A DNA stretch of 52,896 nt, taken from Clostridium sp. Its GTDB lineage: Bacteria; Bacillota; Clostridia; Clostridiales; Clostridiaceae. The notes below the pieces were generated by a model that did not search any database, was not told where the DNA came from, and was given only the letters and a program-made list of their open reading frames with translations. The DNA is taken from the NCBI GenBank assembly GCA_022785265.1, contig JALFQD010000403.1, positions 1-52,896 on the forward strand. Reading direction: 5' to 3'. Shown here in pieces: positions 37,259 through 39,839 of this stretch (positions within the stretch are counted from its first letter, which is position 1; each line of letters begins with the position of its first letter). Both the position numbers and the translations under genes were made by a program.

Positions 37259-37999
37259 GTGGTTTATTTGAAAATTGATTTAACAAATAAACAATATGAA
37301 AATTTTAAAGTTATAAATCGAAATATTGAAAAAAAAGGTAAAAATGTTTGGTGGAATTGTCAATGTAAATGTGGTAAAATGTTTACAGCGACAACTACTG
37401 ATATTAATAGAGGCATTATTAAATCTTGCGGTTGTATGAAATCTGAATTATTAAGCAAAGCTCATCTACAAGATTTAACAGGAAAAACATTTGGAGAGTT
37501 ATACGTAATTCGTAGAAACAAAGAAGCTCAAGTTAATGGGCATAAAACTACAACTATGTATGATTGTCAATGTTCTTGTGGTAATATTATTACCGTAGAA
37601 AGAGGTAAGTTAATATCAAGAGGTCAAAAATCTTGTGGATGTAAAAATTCTATTGGGGAGTTAAATATTAACAAATTATTAACTGATAATAACATAAATT
37701 ACATTTCTCAATATACAAATTAGAGCTTAAAAACTCAAAACAACGGTTTTTTAAGATTTGATTTTGCTATACTTGATAAAGAAAACAATGTTATTCGTTT
37801 AATTGAATTTGATGGTCCACAACACACTAAAACAGTTGAGTATTTTAATAAAACAGATTTATTAAAAGAAGTCCAAGCAAGAGATGAATTAAAAAATAAT
37901 TATGCAAAAAATAATAATATCCCTTTAGTAAGAATTCCTTATTATAAAAGAGATACTATTAAAATTGAAGAATTATTAGGGGATCAGTTTTTAATCTGA
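37259..37999 (+). CDS. Homing-endonuclease-like protein: repeated Zn-finger modules plus a C-terminal DUF559/Vsr-like PD-(D/E)xK nuclease domain. It is the only plus-strand gene and has one sense TAG at 37721-37723.
   Basis: Repeats WNCQCKCGKMF…SCGCMKSE and YDCQCSCGNII…SCGCKNS. After TAG the frame continues …LRFDFAILDKENNVIRLIEFDGPQH…, the DUF559 signature. The likely start is TTG at 37268 after an AAAGGA ribosome-binding site. TGA is at ~37997. It converges on and overlaps the NADAR gene 3' end. Confidence 0.6.
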
Positions 38000-38434
38000 T
38001 TCCCTTAATTCTTTTCTCACCCTCATTAAAATTTTCCCTAATTTGTTATATGCCATTTTGTCTTTACACTTAATACAATGACAGACTCCCCAAGTATTAT
38101 CGCACCAAGTGTTTCCCTCTTCAAGCCAAGCTTCTCCGGTTTTTTCAAGGGCAGTCCGCAAAGTTGGGTTTTGCATAAATTTAGCTTTTACGCCTTTATA
38201 CATAACATCTTCTTTAATATCTTCCCAATCCTTACGAATTACGCAATGTCTTCCTAATCTCTTGGATTTGCCAGGTGTAGGAGCAAGTCTAATTTCTTCC
38301 GCATCCCCGGGGTTTGCTGCTTTCATTGCCTGAAAATAGTTTTCTACCGTAAGATATCTTTTTCCTTCTATTGTAATCGGAGAGTAAAAAAAGTTGCTTA
38401 AAAAAGCAAAATCTCCTTCAAATTTATCAATCAT
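37991..38434 (-). CDS. NADAR-domain protein (YbiA/DUF1768 family; ADP-ribose-processing N-glycosidase family)
   Basis: FLSNFFYSPITIEGKRYLTVENYFQAMK is a classic NADAR signature. 147 aa. Confidence 0.7.
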   Translation of the reverse strand: MIDKFEGDFAFLSNFFYSPITIEGKRYLTVENYFQAMKAANPGDAEEIRLAPTPGKSKRLGRHCVIRKDWEDIKEDVMYKGVKAKFMQNPTLRTALEKTGEAWLEEGNTWCDNTWGVCHCIKCKDKMAYNKLGKILMRVRKELRESD

Positions 38435-38662
38435 TTAAAACTCCTCAAAATTCTGAAGATCTAATTCGGCTAAATCTTCAAAATCAAAATCTTCATTGTC
38501 ATCAATATTAACGCCATACATTTCAGCGCCTTCTTTAAGATATTGTCTGCGGCCTTCCATATACCATGTCCAGTTATCGACACCGTCCCCTTCAAGAACA
38601 TTAAGCTCATTTTCAGCTTTAAGAAGTTCAAGAAGTCTTTCTTTAGAAACGATATAACTCAT
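38435..38662 (-). CDS. Small acidic hypothetical protein
   Basis: 75-aa ORF rich in Asp/Glu with a cassette promoter upstream. Confidence 0.4.
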   Translation of the reverse strand: MSYIVSKERLLELLKAENELNVLEGDGVDNWTWYMEGRRQYLKEGAEMYGVNIDDNEDFDFEDLAELDLQNFEEF

Positions 38663-38691
38663 AATAATATCACCTTTCTTCTTATATAAAT

Positions 38692-38720
38692 ATTATATAA
38701 TAATTTTTTAAAAAAATCAA
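38692..38720 (-). promoter_or_regulatory. Cassette promoter TTGATT-17-TATAAT
   Basis: Conserved motif. The terminator 38717..38749 U-tract overlaps its -35 element. Confidence 0.55.
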
Positions 38721-38749
38721 AAAGGAGATAAGAATTACTTCTTATCTCC
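38717..38749 (-). terminator. Rho-independent terminator overlapping the 38735..39271 stop
   Basis: Hairpin GGAGATAAGAA/TTCTTATCTCC followed by a U-tract. Confidence 0.55.
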
Positions 38750-39271
38750 TTTTTCTTGAATAAAAGTTTTAATTGGTTCACTTACAAAGCAACAAATATC
38801 ACACGCAACTTTTACTGACTCTTCTGGATCATGTTTCAAGTATAGTGCGGTTGTTGCATAAGGAGCGCCCGCTCCAATAGCAAAATAGTCTTTGATCTCT
38901 CTTACCATAAACTTACAAATATGGAAAAGATGCCCTTTATAAGCAATAAGAAATTCATTTTTTAGGAATCCATCACCGATAAGAGTATTTTTCCATTTTG
39001 AAAATTCAATAATGTAATTAAGAATTTCTCGTTCATTAGCTTCAACTGGCTGATGATTCTCCATGTAAAGCCACATTAAACTTTGCTCATCGCCATAACC
39101 AACTCCGCCAAGAATCATATCGTTAATCTTAGCAATTTTAGCAAAATTAACATTAGGTTCCTTTTCATAGCCATTAGTAAGAATACTATCAGCACTCATT
39201 ACAATTCTATCATCATAAACTTTAGCTGCGACAACGCTCATTTCAATCCTCCAACTGACAGATATAAACAT
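38735..39271 (-). CDS. Ntn-hydrolase / HslV-proteasome-like peptidase (tentative)
   Basis: AIGAGAPYATTALY resembles the GSG…YA…GA segment of HslV/proteasome beta subunits. 178 aa. Confidence 0.4.
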   Translation of the reverse strand: MFISVSWRIEMSVVAAKVYDDRIVMSADSILTNGYEKEPNVNFAKIAKINDMILGGVGYGDEQSLMWLYMENHQPVEANEREILNYIIEFSKWKNTLIGDGFLKNEFLIAYKGHLFHICKFMVREIKDYFAIGAGAPYATTALYLKHDPEESVKVACDICCFVSEPIKTFIQEKGDKK

Positions 39272-39839
39272 CTTCGTGATGGAGAATTTTTTTAATCATT
39301 AATTGAATAATATCCCAGTCTCCTCCACCAAGACCACACCCAATTTTATAAGGAAAAGCAATCGGAACATAGTCAGGAACTAATTTATTTAAATTTTCTA
39401 AACAGCTAGCAAATGCTTCATAATTAGTGTATCTACACGGGCCATATCCATAATCATATTGAGCGAATAAACTTGCTACTCTATGACCATCTATGGTAGT
39501 AGTGCAAGCAACTGCGCCAAGTAAAATATCATCAGGTGGATTTTCTAATCCTGCGACTTGTGCTTCCGCGTTTTCAATAGTTTTTTTATAATCTGCATAG
39601 ACTTCAGGCCAACGAATACGAATTTGTTTGGCAAGACCCGCACCCATAACGCCTTGACAATTTACCTGATGACAAATTACAATTTTAGGGGATAAGTCTA
39701 ATAGACTTTTTTTATAATAAGTAAGATTTTTAACCACTGATTTTATCTCCGTTATGATAAAAATTACAAAATCTTGAATCGCCACCACAAGAGCAAATTT
39801 CGCGTTCCTTAGTGCCCCAACATTCTGCGGTTTTATCAT
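39243..39839 (-). CDS. Macro-domain protein (ADP-ribose binding / ADP-ribosylhydrolase family)
   Basis: KIVICHQVNCQGVMGAGLAKQI and GCGLGGGDW motifs are typical of macro domains. The N-terminal ~50 aa overlap the upstream gene, so the true start is uncertain. Confidence 0.65.
   Translation of the reverse strand: MIKPQNVGALRNAKFALVVAIQDFVIFIITEIKSVVKNLTYYKKSLLDLSPKIVICHQVNCQGVMGAGLAKQIRIRWPEVYADYKKTIENAEAQVAGLENPPDDILLGAVACTTTIDGHRVASLFAQYDYGYGPCRYTNYEAFASCLENLNKLVPDYVPIAFPYKIGCGLGGGDWDIIQLMIKKILHHEDVYICQLED

What the first reader, a model, noticed from the sequence alone, without database searches (positions are those of the whole stretch)
37991..39839. NADAR and macro-domain genes side by side: a likely anti-ADP-ribosylation (DarT-type) counter-defence pair
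The NADAR signature (FLSNF…ENYFQAMK) and the macro-domain glycine-rich motifs are clear in the sequence. Both families remove ADP-ribose from modified substrates. Phage NADAR and macro proteins are known to reverse DNA ADP-ribosylation by DarT-like toxins. Here they flank an HslV-like peptidase and lie near the RNA-repair genes and an orphan RelE-like toxin. This forms a compact anti-defence island.
Basis: partly seen in the sequence, partly recalled or inferred. Interest (0 to 1): 0.55.

Follow-up and report, generated by a model that had tools for sequence, protein, structure and literature searches.

The report
Phage ADP-ribose-removing enzyme pair
A large phage carries two real, neighbouring genes for enzymes that cut ADP-ribose off other molecules; this is a known kind of phage counter-defence equipment, and in related phages the same two genes sit inside an NAD+-rebuilding gene cluster rather than forming a dedicated anti-DarT unit.

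Summary
37991-38434(-) encodes a NADAR protein (Pfam 97 bits; all nine ADP-ribose-contact residues conserved). 39243-39737(-) encodes a macrodomain; its true start is GTG 39737, not 39839. The macrodomain belongs to the TARG1/DarG/SCO6735 class and has Gln93 where DarG has its catalytic Lys.

Two genes lie between them: a BPH/HslV-like hydrolase and an unnoticed T7 gp5.9-like RecBCD-inhibitor homologue.

The two enzymes are not one operon. A conserved terminator plus promoter (TTGATT-N17-TATAAT) separates [RNA ligase…macro–HslV-like] from [gp5.9-like–NADAR].

The anti-DarT reading is partly supported.
- The NADAR is 43% identical to the T5-like NADAR type (Bas32) shown experimentally to neutralise DarTG1.
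- The macrodomain class reverses thymine-linked ADP-ribosylation.
- However, in related phages these two genes sit in an NAD+ salvage/NARP1-like cluster (PncA–Prs/Adps–NAMPT–macro–NadE–NADAR). That cluster is missing from this window.
- The macro gene carries independent nonsense or frameshift lesions in 5 of 13 close relatives. The NADAR is disrupted in none.

Verdict: a new member of a known kind, of modest interest.

The parts
37991..38434 (-). NADAR (YbiA-subfamily) ADP-ribosyl N-glycohydrolase, 147 aa
   Evidence: PF08719 at 1.4e-27 and TIGR02464 above cut-off. E31, K38, K58, R62, W70, K74, E106, D112 and W115 are invariant in the family and map to the PnNADAR ADPr-contact residues (PMC11543638). 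43% identical to the Bas32-type NADAR. Omega 0.12 among relatives.
38435..38662 (-). T7 gp5.9-like (RecBCD-inhibitor family) acidic protein, 75 aa; its stop codon directly abuts the NADAR start codon and it shares the NADAR's transcription unit
   Evidence: PF25708 34.7 bits (cut-off 24.5) and phrog_6234 3.6e-11. pI 4.05. Zero intergenic bases to the NADAR start.
38692..38720 (-). Promoter-like element TTGATT-N17-TATAAT heading the gp5.9-like/NADAR unit
   Evidence: One of 9 exact copies in the window, all on the minus strand, against 0.11 expected. Conserved exactly in 12 of 13 relatives.
38719..38754 (-). Terminator-like hairpin (16-bp stem plus T-run) ending the RNA ligase...macro-HslV-like unit
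   Evidence: The stem is kept by a compensatory change in relative L009.
38735..39241 (-). BPH/HslV-like N-terminal-nucleophile hydrolase, 168 aa, with Ser2 as the likely nucleophile; its start lies 1 nt from the macro stop
   Evidence: phrog_1040 1.3e-19. Family-invariant M1-S2, D18, K35. Model pLDDT 93.9. Foldseek top hit BPH 5ovt (E 1.5e-12, TMq 0.83), then HslV and proteasome beta. Omega 0.02.
39243..39737 (-). Macrodomain, ALC1/TARG1-like class, SCO6735/BT1257-like Gln variant, 164 aa (GTG start)
   Evidence: Start. Fold. Profile against PDB: BT1257 8.5e-18, Mtb DarG 2.4e-13, SCO6735 3.2e-12, TARG1 2.8e-8, Poa1p 1e-7. Invariant H23, N26 and Q93 correspond to SCO6735 H24, N27 and Q85 (PMC9411070).
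39730..40128 (-). Hypothetical 132-aa Cys-rich protein; its stop overlaps the macro start by 8 nt
   Evidence: No family match. Conserved in all 13 relatives.
40303..41682 (-). RNA ligase, in the same tightly packed transcription unit as the macrodomain
   Evidence: phrog_968 1.5e-63, with Pfam RNA_ligase and PHA02142 OB hits. 47% identical to Bacillus phage RNA ligases.
42078..42106 (-). Promoter-like element heading the unit 41685-42044 / RNA ligase / ... / macro / HslV-like
35890..36168 (-). 92-aa protein of unknown function, fused to the C-terminus of the NADAR in related phages
   Evidence: NADAR homologues P0173 and P0196 (234 aa) carry this domain. L059 7433-7678 matches it at 42% identity.
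44552..44863 (-). cREC (cyclic-phosphate-processing receiver) domain protein, a possible partner in ADPR-cyclic-phosphate processing
   Evidence: PF20274 1.8e-17. A homologue lies near the NAMPT-macro-NadE cluster in L058.

Best explanation
These are two independent ADP-ribose-releasing hydrolases from a phage early-gene toolkit aimed at NAD+-consuming host immunity. They appear to be what remains of a conserved NAMPT-macro-(NadE)-NADAR module.

Shown:
- Both genes are intact here and have complete active-site signatures.
- They lie in two adjacent transcription units driven by the same promoter type.
- The NADAR is co-transcribed with a gp5.9-like DNA-mimic homologue.
- The macrodomain is co-transcribed with an RNA ligase and a BPH/HslV-like hydrolase.
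- In related phages with the same backbone, the two genes flank NadE at the 3' end of a PncA-Prs/Adps-NAMPT cluster. That cluster is absent from this window.

Inferred for the NADAR: it cleaves the N-glycosidic bond between ADP-ribose and guanine (possibly also cytosine) on phage DNA or RNA modified by DarT1-type or pierisin-type host transferases. This restores replication, as its 43%-identical relative from phage Bas32 does.

Inferred for the macrodomain: it works by a lysine-independent, SCO6735-like mechanism (Gln93 positions the substrate, water attacks). Its substrate is one of two things. It may be thymine/uracil- or phosphate-linked ADP-ribose on nucleic acid. Or it may be ADP-ribose-1''-phosphate derived from ADPR-cyclic-phosphate, the spontaneous breakdown product of the NARP1 intermediate ADPR-PP, which is also the Tpt1 by-product of RNA repair. 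In either case free ADP-ribose is returned.

The macrodomain seems partly dispensable in this lineage, which has lost the salvage genes from this locus.
For: NADAR identity and residues.

Homology to the experimentally active Bas32-type NADAR: with PMC11257639.

Macro fold and class. Gln at the SCO6735 Q85 position: with PMC9411070.

Separate transcription units.

Conserved NAD+ salvage context:
- 5 of 5 sampled macro homologues lie between NAMPT and NadE.
- L059 and L060 share the window's backbone and read NAMPT-macro-NadE-NADAR.
- Of 80 NAMPT loci, 57 have the macro, 32 the NADAR, 31 both and 1 the NADAR alone. After de-replication into 11 clusters, the macro is in 9 and the NADAR in 6.
- Further cases are L014, L037 and L038.

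No salvage genes occur in the window.

ADPR-cyclic-phosphate is a by-product of NARP1.

Macro loss-of-function alleles occur in 5 of 13 relatives. Three of the four nonsense codons found across 18 genes fall in the macro gene (P = 5e-4). Intact copies have omega 0.12.
Against:
- E. coli YbiA and T4 gp30.3 hydrolyse G-ADPr in vitro yet failed to rescue DarT1 toxicity in one study (PMC11125620). In vivo anti-DarT1 activity therefore cannot be assumed from residues alone.
- The macrodomain is acidic (pI 5.5). It lacks SCO6735 K34, K89 and K93, which argues against a DNA substrate. It also lacks Poa1p S30, which argues against a strict Poa1p-like phosphatase.
- No Adps/Namat or KptA/Tpt1 homologue was found in the window to supply ADPR-cyclic-phosphate.
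- Only about 53 kb of a roughly 160-197 kb genome was seen.
- The NAMPT loci are phylogenetically non-independent.
Confidence: 0.5

Rival explanations
1. The two proteins are a dedicated anti-DarT pair: the NADAR reverses DarT1 guanine-ADPr and the macrodomain reverses DarT2 thymine-ADPr on phage ssDNA, together covering both DarTG subtypes.
For: - All three phage NADARs tested so far counter DarTG1, and the phage macrodomain AdfM counters DarTG2 (PMC11257639, PMC13309987).
- Thymine-ADPr reversal is described as a unifying activity of the ALC1-like class. Gln-type SCO6735 rescues DarT toxicity (PMC9411070).
- The macro profile hits DarG models and is 27% identical to AdfM.
- The NADAR shares its transcription unit with a DNA-end-protecting gp5.9 homologue.
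Against: - The two genes are not co-operonic.
- The macro lacks the DarG K80 / AdfM K78 equivalent and the SCO6735 loop lysines, and it is acidic.
- The macro's conserved neighbours elsewhere are NAMPT/NadE, PARP or TROVE/RNA-repair genes, never replication genes.
- The macro is recurrently inactivated in relatives.
- No DarT-bearing host is known.
Confidence: 0.25
2. A purely metabolic reading. Both enzymes act on soluble ADP-ribose derivatives, such as ADPR-cyclic-phosphate, ADPR-1''-phosphate, O-acetyl-ADPR or cADPR-type immune signals. They either feed ADP-ribose into NAD+ reconstitution or destroy signals, and they do not act on modified nucleic acids.
For: - The NAMPT-macro-(NadE)-NADAR arrangement is conserved, and SIR2 sits in the cluster in L060.
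- cREC is nearby here and in L058.
- phrog_335 is annotated 'phosphatase', and the macro resembles Poa1p.
- ADPR-cyclic-phosphate accumulates during NARP1 action.
- Iyer et al. [quoted passage not shown]
Against: - Every NADAR assayed so far, including YbiA and three phage enzymes, cleaves guanine-ADPr on nucleic acid (PMC11125620, PMC11257639, PMC11833690).
- The Bas32-type relative works in vivo against DarTG1.
- The pair persists here without the salvage genes.
- Poa1p S30 is not conserved.
Confidence: 0.2
3. An RNA-repair accessory or eraser for the phage's own ADP-ribosyltransferase. The macrodomain cleans up Tpt1/KptA by-products or removes ADP-ribose from RNA ends during tRNA repair. 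Alternatively, the pair reverses modifications written by a phage-encoded ART or PARP elsewhere in the genome.
For: - The macro is translationally packed into the RNA ligase unit.
- TROVE, HAD_SAK_2 and cREC occur near macro homologues elsewhere.
- A WGR-PARP gene lies directly upstream of the macro (and the NADAR) in L042, L050 and L052.
- TARG1-like macros reverse U-ADPr and phosphate-linked RNA ADPr (PMC13036486, PMC11833690).
Against: - No KptA/Tpt1, 2H, PARP or other ART was found among the window proteins scanned.
- The RNA ligase-macro adjacency is specific to this lineage. In L059 the NAD+ genes lie between them.
Confidence: 0.05

Closest known systems
NADAR-Bas32 (T5-like phage IrisVonRoten) and AdfN (T4 gp30.3), phage anti-DarTG1 NADARs
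   Same: Stand-alone phage NADAR of about 145-150 aa, with the catalytic Glu/Lys pair (E31/K38 here, E36/K43 in AdfN) and the full ADPr-binding set. It is 43% identical over its full length to the Bas32-type protein.
   Different: It is not a PF08010/AdfN member (no hit). It has Glu106 where T4-like NADARs have His. It carries a [H/C]-x6-C-x-C-x2-C cluster that the Bas32 type and YbiA lack. Its genomic setting is RNA repair or NAD+ salvage rather than nucleotide metabolism. Activity is untested.
E. coli YbiA (2b3w), NADAR/YbiA subfamily
   Same: It is the best solved relative (5e-19). The subfamily-defining Glu is present. The protein passes the TIGR02464 cut-off.
   Different: YbiA is a chromosomal housekeeping or SOS-operon gene with riboflavin-intermediate N-glycosidase activity, and it did not protect against DarT1 in vivo (PMC11125620). 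This protein is phage-encoded and lies in a counter-defence region.
SCO6735 (5e3b) and BT1257 (2afc/2fg1), Gln-type ALC1-like macrodomains
   Same: They are the best sequence and fold matches. The equivalents of H24, N27 and Q85 are invariant (H23, N26, Q93). SCO6735 removes thymine-ADPr and rescues DarT toxicity without a catalytic Lys (PMC9411070).
   Different: K34 is Ala here (Ser in most of the family). The 'mobile loop' is 1-2 residues shorter and lacks K89 and K93. The protein is acidic (pI 5.5). Identity is only about 22%.
AdfM (PhiKZ gp104) and DarG2 macrodomains
   Same: Same macrodomain class. The N22/N23 equivalent is present. Identity to AdfM is 27% (E 4e-10; hhalign probability 96.9).
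   Different: The catalytic Lys (K80/K78) is replaced by Gln. There is no DarT-binding C-terminal domain. The scores fall far below the DarG model cut-offs (44 bits against 250).
Yeast Poa1p (6lfr), ADP-ribose-1''-phosphate phosphatase
   Same: Same class. The N-terminal motif is very similar (xHxxNCxGxxGxGxA), including H23. The PHROG annotation is 'phosphatase'.
   Different: S30 is Val here. The profile alignment covers only the N-terminal half. No Tpt1 is present in the window.
NARP1 NAD+ reconstitution pathway (Adps + Namat)
   Same: In related phages the macro and the NADAR sit directly 3' of Prs/Adps-family and NAMPT/Namat-family genes.
   Different: NARP1 as published is a two-gene system with no macrodomain or NADAR. 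The window has neither Adps nor Namat. Whether the relatives' Prs-like genes are Adps was not tested.

Membership tests
NADAR superfamily (PF08719) | Profile match above the curated cut-off | tested here: met
   97.4 bits against 35.1.
NADAR superfamily (PF08719) | ADPr-contact and catalytic residues of PnNADAR (E43, K50, K75, R79, W89, R93, E125, D130, W133) | tested here: met
   They map to E31, K38, K58, R62, W70, K74 (R to K, as in YbiA), E106, D112 and W115. All are invariant in 39 homologues (PMC11543638).
YbiA subfamily of NADAR | Glu at the PnNADAR E125 position; TIGR02464 above cut-off | tested here: met
   E106 is present. TIGR02464 scores 100.2 bits against 73.7.
AdfN / T4 gp30.3 family (PF08010) | PF08010 profile match; His at the E125 position | tested here: not met
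   No PF08010 hit at E <= 0.01. The residue is Glu, not His.
DarG1 (BC4488-type NADAR antitoxin) | Asp at the E125 position, an N-terminal DNA-binding extension, and an adjacent DarT1 | tested here: not met
   The residue is Glu106. The core starts at about residue 8. None of the neighbouring genes scanned is a DarT. NF053876 scores 47 bits against 240.
Functional anti-DarTG1 phage NADAR | Removes guanine-ADPr and restores phage growth on DarTG1 hosts | not testable with these tools
   The only evidence is homology: 43% identity to the Bas32 type.
Macro domain (PF01661) | Profile match above the gathering score | tested here: not met
   19 bits against 22 for this sequence. Homologues at 45-50% identity do pass, e.g. 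34.3 bits for the L034 copy.
Macro domain (PF01661) | Macrodomain fold with two Gly-rich phosphate-binding loops | tested here: met
   Model pLDDT 91.7. The top 50 Foldseek hits are almost all macrodomains, with TM up to 0.86. The GVMGAG and GCGLGGG loops are present.
DarG2 / AdfM-type macrodomain | Catalytic Lys (DarG K80, AdfM K78) | tested here: not met
   The residue is Gln93 (or the next residue, Tyr94, in the BLAST register). The column after the Gln is variable across the family.
DarG2 / AdfM-type macrodomain | Asn of the NxxG motif (DarG N22) | tested here: met
   N26 is invariant.
SCO6735/BT1257 subclass | Gln at the catalytic-Lys position, plus H24 and N27 | tested here: met
   Q93, H23 and N26 are invariant. 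The alignment of NMFAQ with NMIGQ is gap-free.
SCO6735/BT1257 subclass | Mobile loop five residues longer, carrying K89 and K93; K34 present | tested here: not met
   The loop is 1-2 residues shorter than in SCO6735 and has no Lys. Position 33 is Ala here and Ser in most of the family.
Poa1p-type ADPR-1''-phosphatase | H23 and S30 of Poa1p | tested here: inconclusive
   The H23 equivalent is present, but S30 is Val. Only the N-terminal half aligns.
T7 gp5.9 RecBCD inhibitor (PF25708) | Profile above cut-off; small, very acidic protein | tested here: met
   34.7 bits against 24.5. 75 aa, pI 4.05. Inhibition itself cannot be tested here.
HslV / proteasome-beta Ntn hydrolases | Fold, plus an N-terminal nucleophile with Asp17 and Lys33 equivalents | tested here: met
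   Foldseek hits are BPH, HslV and 20S beta subunits. M1-S2, D18 and K35 are invariant. The nucleophile is Ser rather than Thr. The Pfam Proteasome match is sub-threshold (16.6 bits against 22.4).

The most novel reading that the evidence does not exclude
The macro-NADAR pair may be the ADP-ribose-liberating and by-product-recycling arm of a phage NAD+ reconstitution pathway.
- The macrodomain, possibly together with cREC, would convert the dead-end NARP1 by-product ADPR-cyclic-phosphate / ADPR-1''-phosphate back to ADP-ribose.
- The NADAR would strip ADP-ribose from modified nucleobases.
- Everything a host NAD+-consuming defence produces would then be funnelled back into NAD+.

In this phage lineage the salvage genes have been lost from the locus. 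The macro gene is decaying, with five independent loss-of-function alleles in 13 genomes, while the NADAR has been kept and is now paired with a gp5.9-like DNA-mimic homologue.
Probability: 0.2. Interest if true: 0.6.

Novelty: new member of a known kind. Interest (0 to 1): 0.32.

Why it matters
Phage NADAR and macrodomain counter-defence proteins were demonstrated only recently (AdfN in 2024, AdfM in 2026). Their co-occurrence in large phages had already been catalogued (Iyer et al. 2022). This locus therefore adds another example rather than a new principle.

It does add three things:
- A Gln-type (SCO6735-like) phage macrodomain, distinct from the Lys-type AdfM.
- Evidence that this macro-NADAR pair is ancestrally embedded next to NAMPT and NadE. 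That gives a testable link between de-ADP-ribosylation and NAD+ reconstitution.
- A natural contrast, with the macro recurrently broken and the NADAR disrupted in none of the relatives. This could show which activity matters once the salvage genes are gone.

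Tried and rejected
- A near-identity DNA search of 37000-42500 against GenBank phages found nothing. The lineage is known only from metagenomic contigs.
- A phage-encoded writer was sought. The WGR-PARP found beside the macro and NADAR in L042 has no homologue in the window. No KptA/Tpt1, 2H or ART appeared among about 40 window proteins scanned.
- Salvage genes were sought in the window (PncA, Prs/Adps, YqeY, Thg1, NAMPT, NadE, SIR2). None was found. The lineage's contigs are absent from the 80 best NAMPT loci.
- ICP1 AdfB was considered as a macro relative and rejected. 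It is a 77-aa DarT binder, not a macrodomain.
- The contexts in SPbetaL8 and SUSP2 were uninformative.
- The two poly-A frameshifts in the macro gene were considered as proof of pseudogenes. This was downgraded, because they lie in an A7 run and could be assembly errors. The three nonsense substitutions are the stronger evidence.
- Stop-codon recoding (TGA read as Trp) was considered as an explanation for those stops and rejected. No other gene in the same contigs has an in-frame TGA, and the third stop is TAA at a Gln codon.
- The 'FS' flags for other genes mostly reflect intron-like insertions or end variation, and were not counted as disruptions.
- Burroughs & Aravind 2016 (tried under the id PMC5062991, from memory) is not in the held library.
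- tblastn of the HslV-like protein against GenBank phages found nothing.

Full report
**What is at the coordinates**

All genes in the 52.9-kb window lie on the minus strand, and G+C is about 32%. Five features occupy the stated span.
- 37991-38434: a 147-aa NADAR protein. It matches PF08719 at 1.4e-27 (97.4 bits, cut-off 35.1) and TIGR02464 at 100.2 bits (cut-off 73.7).
- 38435-38662: a 75-aa acidic protein. It matches the T7 gp5.9 RecBCD-inhibitor family (PF25708 34.7 bits against 24.5; phrog_6234 3.6e-11; pI 4.05).
- 38735-39241: an HslV-like protein (phrog_1040 1.3e-19).
- 39243-39737: a macrodomain protein.
- The 3' end of an unrelated 132-aa ORF (39730-40128).

The real start is almost certainly the GTG at 39737. 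A GGAG precedes it, it overlaps the upstream stop (GTGGTTAA), and homologues begin there.

**The NADAR**

The best solved relatives are E. coli YbiA (2b3w, 5e-19) and the Phytophthora NADAR (8bau, 1.3e-7). In the 8bau alignment, the nine residues that contact ADP-ribose or are needed for catalysis are E43, K50, K75, R79, W89, R93, E125, D130 and W133 (PMC11543638). They correspond here to E31, K38, K58, R62, W70, K74, E106, D112 and W115. Every one is invariant in an alignment of 39 homologues.

Glu at the E125 position is the YbiA-subfamily signature. DarT1-linked antitoxins have Asp and T4-like AdfN proteins have His. PF08010 (gp30.3) does not match. The protein is therefore neither a DarG1-type nor an AdfN-type NADAR.

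It is 43% identical over its full length (E 5e-37) to the NADAR of T5-like phages. That gene is 97.8% identical at the DNA level in phage IrisVonRoten, which is Bas32. NADAR-Bas32 was shown to neutralise DarT1 and to restore phage growth on DarTG1 hosts (PMC11257639).

Two cautions apply. YbiA and T4 gp30.3 hydrolysed guanine-ADPr in vitro but did not rescue DarT1 toxicity in another study (PMC11125620). NADARs also act on RNA guanine-ADPr and on cytosine-ADPr.

This subfamily carries a conserved [H/C]111-x6-C118-x-C120-x2-C123 cluster that YbiA and the Bas32 type lack.

**The macrodomain**

Pfam Macro is just below threshold for this sequence (19 bits against 22). The family is nevertheless large: 1439 homologues were found, and about half of the 120 listed carry a precomputed PF01661 hit. 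Matches occur in 1387 GenBank phage records.

An AlphaFold model built on 57 sequences has pLDDT 91.7. Its best Foldseek matches are BT1257 (TM 0.80-0.86), Poa1p, DarG, TARG1 and SCO6735. A family profile scores as follows against solved structures:

| Structure | E-value |
|---|---|
| BT1257 | 8.5e-18 |
| M. tuberculosis DarG | 2.4e-13 |
| SCO6735 | 3.2e-12 |
| TARG1 | 2.8e-8 |
| Poa1p (N-terminal half only) | 1e-7 |

This places the protein in the ALC1/TARG1-like class, in which reversal of thymine-ADPr is described as a unifying activity (PMC9411070).

The DarG/AdfM catalytic lysine (K80/K78) is not present. The family has an invariant Gln93 in NMFAQ, which aligns without gaps to NMIGQ of SCO6735 and BT1257. 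There, Gln85 occupies the lysine position and Q85A abolishes activity. H23 and N26 correspond to SCO6735 H24 and N27.

The protein differs from SCO6735 in four ways. It lacks K34. It lacks the two lysines of the 'mobile loop' implicated in DNA binding. Its loop is slightly shorter. It is acidic, with pI 5.5.

Against the experimentally validated phage anti-DarTG2 macrodomain AdfM (PhiKZ gp104), it is 27% identical (E 4e-10; hhalign probability 96.9). Poa1p H23 is conserved but S30 is not. Sequence alone therefore cannot decide between a nucleic-acid substrate and an ADPR-1''-phosphate-type substrate.

**Transcription units**

The motif TTGATT-N17-TATAAT occurs nine times in the window, always on the minus strand, against 0.11 expected. 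Each copy sits upstream of a gene block.

One copy (38720-38692) lies between the HslV-like gene and the gp5.9-like gene. A 16-bp-stem terminator-like hairpin (38754-38719) immediately precedes it. The promoter is exact in 12 of 13 close relatives, and the hairpin keeps its pairing through a compensatory change in L009.

The predicted units are:
- From promoter 42106: 119-aa wHTH-like protein, RNA ligase, 63-aa ORF, 132-aa ORF, macro, HslV-like, then the terminator. Overlaps or 1-2-nt gaps separate these genes throughout.
- From promoter 38720: gp5.9-like, then NADAR, with zero intergenic bases.

The macro and the NADAR are thus neighbours of the same promoter class, not an operonic pair.

**Comparative context**

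Thirteen IMG/VR contigs (160-197 kb where complete) carry the same block at 84-98% protein identity. That shows the lineage is real but says nothing about functional linkage. More distant relatives are informative.

*Macro homologues next to NAMPT and NadE.* All five long-contig homologues sampled at 45-49% identity lie between a NAMPT/NAPRTase-family gene and NadE, with isochorismatase (PncA-like) and a Prs-family gene upstream.

*Phages sharing the window's backbone.* L059 and L060 match the window at RNA ligase 68%, Band-7 71% and a metallophosphatase 74% identity. They share the order MPE-Znf-PNK-MPE-x-Band7-x-PIN/PhoH. Their gene order reads RNA ligase, PncA, Prs, YqeY, Thg1 (SIR2 in L060), NAMPT, macro, NadE, NADAR, MPE and onward. 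Compared with them, the window lineage lacks the NAD+ genes. It has the HslV-like and gp5.9-like genes where NadE sits. tblastn finds none of PncA, Prs, YqeY, Thg1, NAMPT, NadE or SIR2 in the window.

*Survey of NAMPT loci.* A NAMPT-profile scan of viral contigs gave at least 538 hits.
- Among the 80 best loci, 57 carry this macro family, almost always immediately 3' of NAMPT.
- 32 carry this NADAR family, either immediately after the macro or after NadE.
- 31 carry both, and only one has the NADAR alone (Fisher p = 2.6e-5, not corrected for phylogeny).
- After de-replication at 90% NAMPT identity there are 11 clusters, with the macro in 9 and the NADAR in 6. Presence also varies within the largest cluster.
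- L014, L037 and L038 add further independent cases.

*Other recurrent contexts of the macro family.* A WGR-PARP gene lies directly upstream in L042, L050 and L052, with the NADAR adjacent in L042. TROVE/DUF2828, HAD_SAK_2 and cREC RNA-repair-type neighbours also recur.

*What was already reported.* The association of phage NADAR with NadV/NadM, and the co-occurrence of Macro and NADAR in DNA viruses, were reported by Iyer et al. 2022.

The Prs-family plus NAMPT-family pair is the signature of NARP1 (Adps + Namat). NARP1 rebuilds NAD+ from ADP-ribose and nicotinamide. Its intermediate ADPR-PP decays to ADPR-cyclic-phosphate. The NARP1 preprint does not mention macrodomains. I did not test whether the relatives' Prs-like genes are Adps.

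**Population signal**

Among the 13 close relatives, the macro gene carries three independent nonsense mutations:
- L002, Trp43 to TGA.
- L005, Trp142 to TGA.
- L006, Gln29 to TAA.

It also carries two frameshifts in an A7 run (L007, L012), which could be assembly errors. Across 18 genes surveyed, only four in-frame nonsense codons were seen, and three are in the macro gene, which makes up 5% of the surveyed length (P = 5e-4).

The NADAR shows no convincing disruption in the relatives. One automated frameshift flag (L009) is not borne out by the full-length tblastn match, and one copy runs off the end of its contig (L013). The gp5.9-like and HslV-like genes are intact in all 13.

Intact copies are under purifying selection: omega is 0.12 for the macro, 0.12 for the NADAR, 0.09 for the gp5.9-like gene and 0.02 for the HslV-like gene. 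The macro therefore behaves as a conditionally dispensable gene in this lineage. That fits either loss of its metabolic partners or the fluctuating selection typical of counter-defence genes.

**Interpretation**

What is shown:
- Both enzymes are genuine and catalytically equipped.
- They are not co-operonic.
- As a pair, they descend from a conserved module attached to phage NAD+ salvage genes.

What is inferred:
- The NADAR most likely removes ADP-ribose from guanine (and perhaps cytosine) on nucleic acid, and so can blunt DarT1-type defence. This rests on homology to an active relative and on the uniform activity of every NADAR assayed so far.
- The macrodomain uses a Gln-dependent, SCO6735-like mechanism. 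It acts either on pyrimidine- or phosphate-linked ADP-ribose, or on ADPR-1''-phosphate arising from ADPR-cyclic-phosphate. I cannot separate these two options.

I give about 0.5 to this hybrid picture, 0.25 to the strict 'anti-DarT1 plus anti-DarT2 pair' reading, 0.2 to a purely soluble-metabolite role for both, and 0.05 to an RNA-repair accessory or own-writer eraser role. A riboflavin housekeeping role for the NADAR, as for YbiA, is possible but unlikely in a phage.

**Novelty and score**

Phage NADAR and macrodomain anti-DarT factors are published. So are phage NAD+ reconstitution pathways and the genomic co-occurrence of these domains. This locus is a new member of a known kind.

The modestly new elements are the Gln-type phage macrodomain, the tight NAMPT-macro-(NadE)-NADAR arrangement and its loss here, and the recurrent inactivation of the macro gene. 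Interest is 0.32.

The most novel reading not excluded is that the pair forms the recycling arm of NAD+ reconstitution. I give it about 0.2 probability. It would deserve about 0.6 if true.

Noticed in passing
window 38735-39241 (-): The 'HslV-like' protein is a proteasome-beta/HslV-fold hydrolase whose closest structure is the bacterial proteasome homologue BPH (5ovt, E 1.5e-12, TMq 0.83). Ser2 is the invariant presumptive N-terminal nucleophile, with D18 and K35 also invariant. It is the most strongly conserved gene of the block (omega 0.02). It has no tblastn match in 50,697 GenBank phage records, and no HslU-like partner was seen.
   Followed up: partly
window 38435-38662 (-): A homologue of the T7 gp5.9 RecBCD inhibitor (DNA-mimic family, pI 4.05) lies immediately upstream of the NADAR and in the same transcription unit. 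Its target in a low-GC host (AddAB?) is unknown.
   Followed up: partly
window 19233-50540 (-), nine sites: An exact TTGATT-N17-TATAAT promoter-like motif occurs 9 times, all on the minus strand (0.11 expected). Several copies are preceded by terminator-like hairpins. Together they divide the region into short transcription units: TROVE; MVP; cREC...RelE; RNA ligase...HslV-like; gp5.9-like-NADAR; MPE-h92; PNK and onward.
   Followed up: partly
window 39243-39737 (-) versus L002, L005, L006, L007, L012: The macro gene carries independent loss-of-function alleles in 5 of 13 close relatives. Three are different nonsense codons and two are frameshifts in an A7 run. Neighbouring genes lack nonsense codons.
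   Followed up: yes
window 35890-36168 (-); P0173/P0196; L059 7001-7705: A 92-aa protein of unknown function in the window is fused to the C-terminus of the NADAR in related phages (a 234-aa protein). This suggests that the two work together.
   Followed up: partly
window 37991-38434 (-), residues 111-123: This NADAR subfamily has a conserved [H/C]-x6-C-x-C-x2-C cluster, possibly a zinc knuckle, where YbiA and the Bas32-type NADAR have a Gly-rich or shorter loop.
   Followed up: no
window 37259-37723 (+): This is the only plus-strand ORF of the region. It is an HNH-endonuclease-like fragment (phrog_374 1.5e-28) inside an insertion of about 820 bp between the NADAR and the next gene. The insertion is absent from relatives L003-L008, so it looks like a mobile homing-endonuclease indel.
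   Followed up: partly
window 34900-35424 (-) versus L007, L009, L011; window 41685-42044 versus L007, L008, L009, L011, L013: Some relatives have insertions of about 600-800 bp, one splitting the PNK-like kinase gene and one between the 119-aa gene and the RNA ligase. They look like intron or homing-element insertions.
   Followed up: no
window 46140-48638, 48756-50282, 32668-34053 (-): The phage encodes a major-vault-protein-like protein (MVP shoulder and repeat domains, 832 aa), a TROVE/DUF2828-vWA 'RNA-binding protein' and a Band-7/flotillin-like protein. The first two each have their own promoter copy. Together they resemble Ro/vault-like ribonucleoprotein components alongside the RNA-repair genes.
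   Followed up: no
window 42112-42387 and 41685-42044 (-): The 'orphan' RelE/ParE-like ORF is followed, after a promoter, by a 119-aa protein with weak winged-helix/transcription-regulator matches. A HigBA-like order, toxin first, is therefore possible, and the toxin may not be orphan.
   Followed up: no
L042 4021-6886; L050; L052: In three other large or jumbo phage contigs, a WGR-PARP_reg-PARP protein (499 aa) lies directly upstream of a macro of this family. In L042 the NADAR lies next to that macro. This would be a phage-encoded writer beside its erasers.
   Followed up: partly
L053-L060, L061-L140: Many gut-type phage contigs carry a cluster of PncA, a Prs/Adps-like gene, (YqeY, Thg1 or SIR2), NAMPT/Namat-like, macro, NadE and NADAR. 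This is larger than the published two-gene NARP1. Whether the macro recycles ADPR-cyclic-phosphate is an open question.
   Followed up: partly
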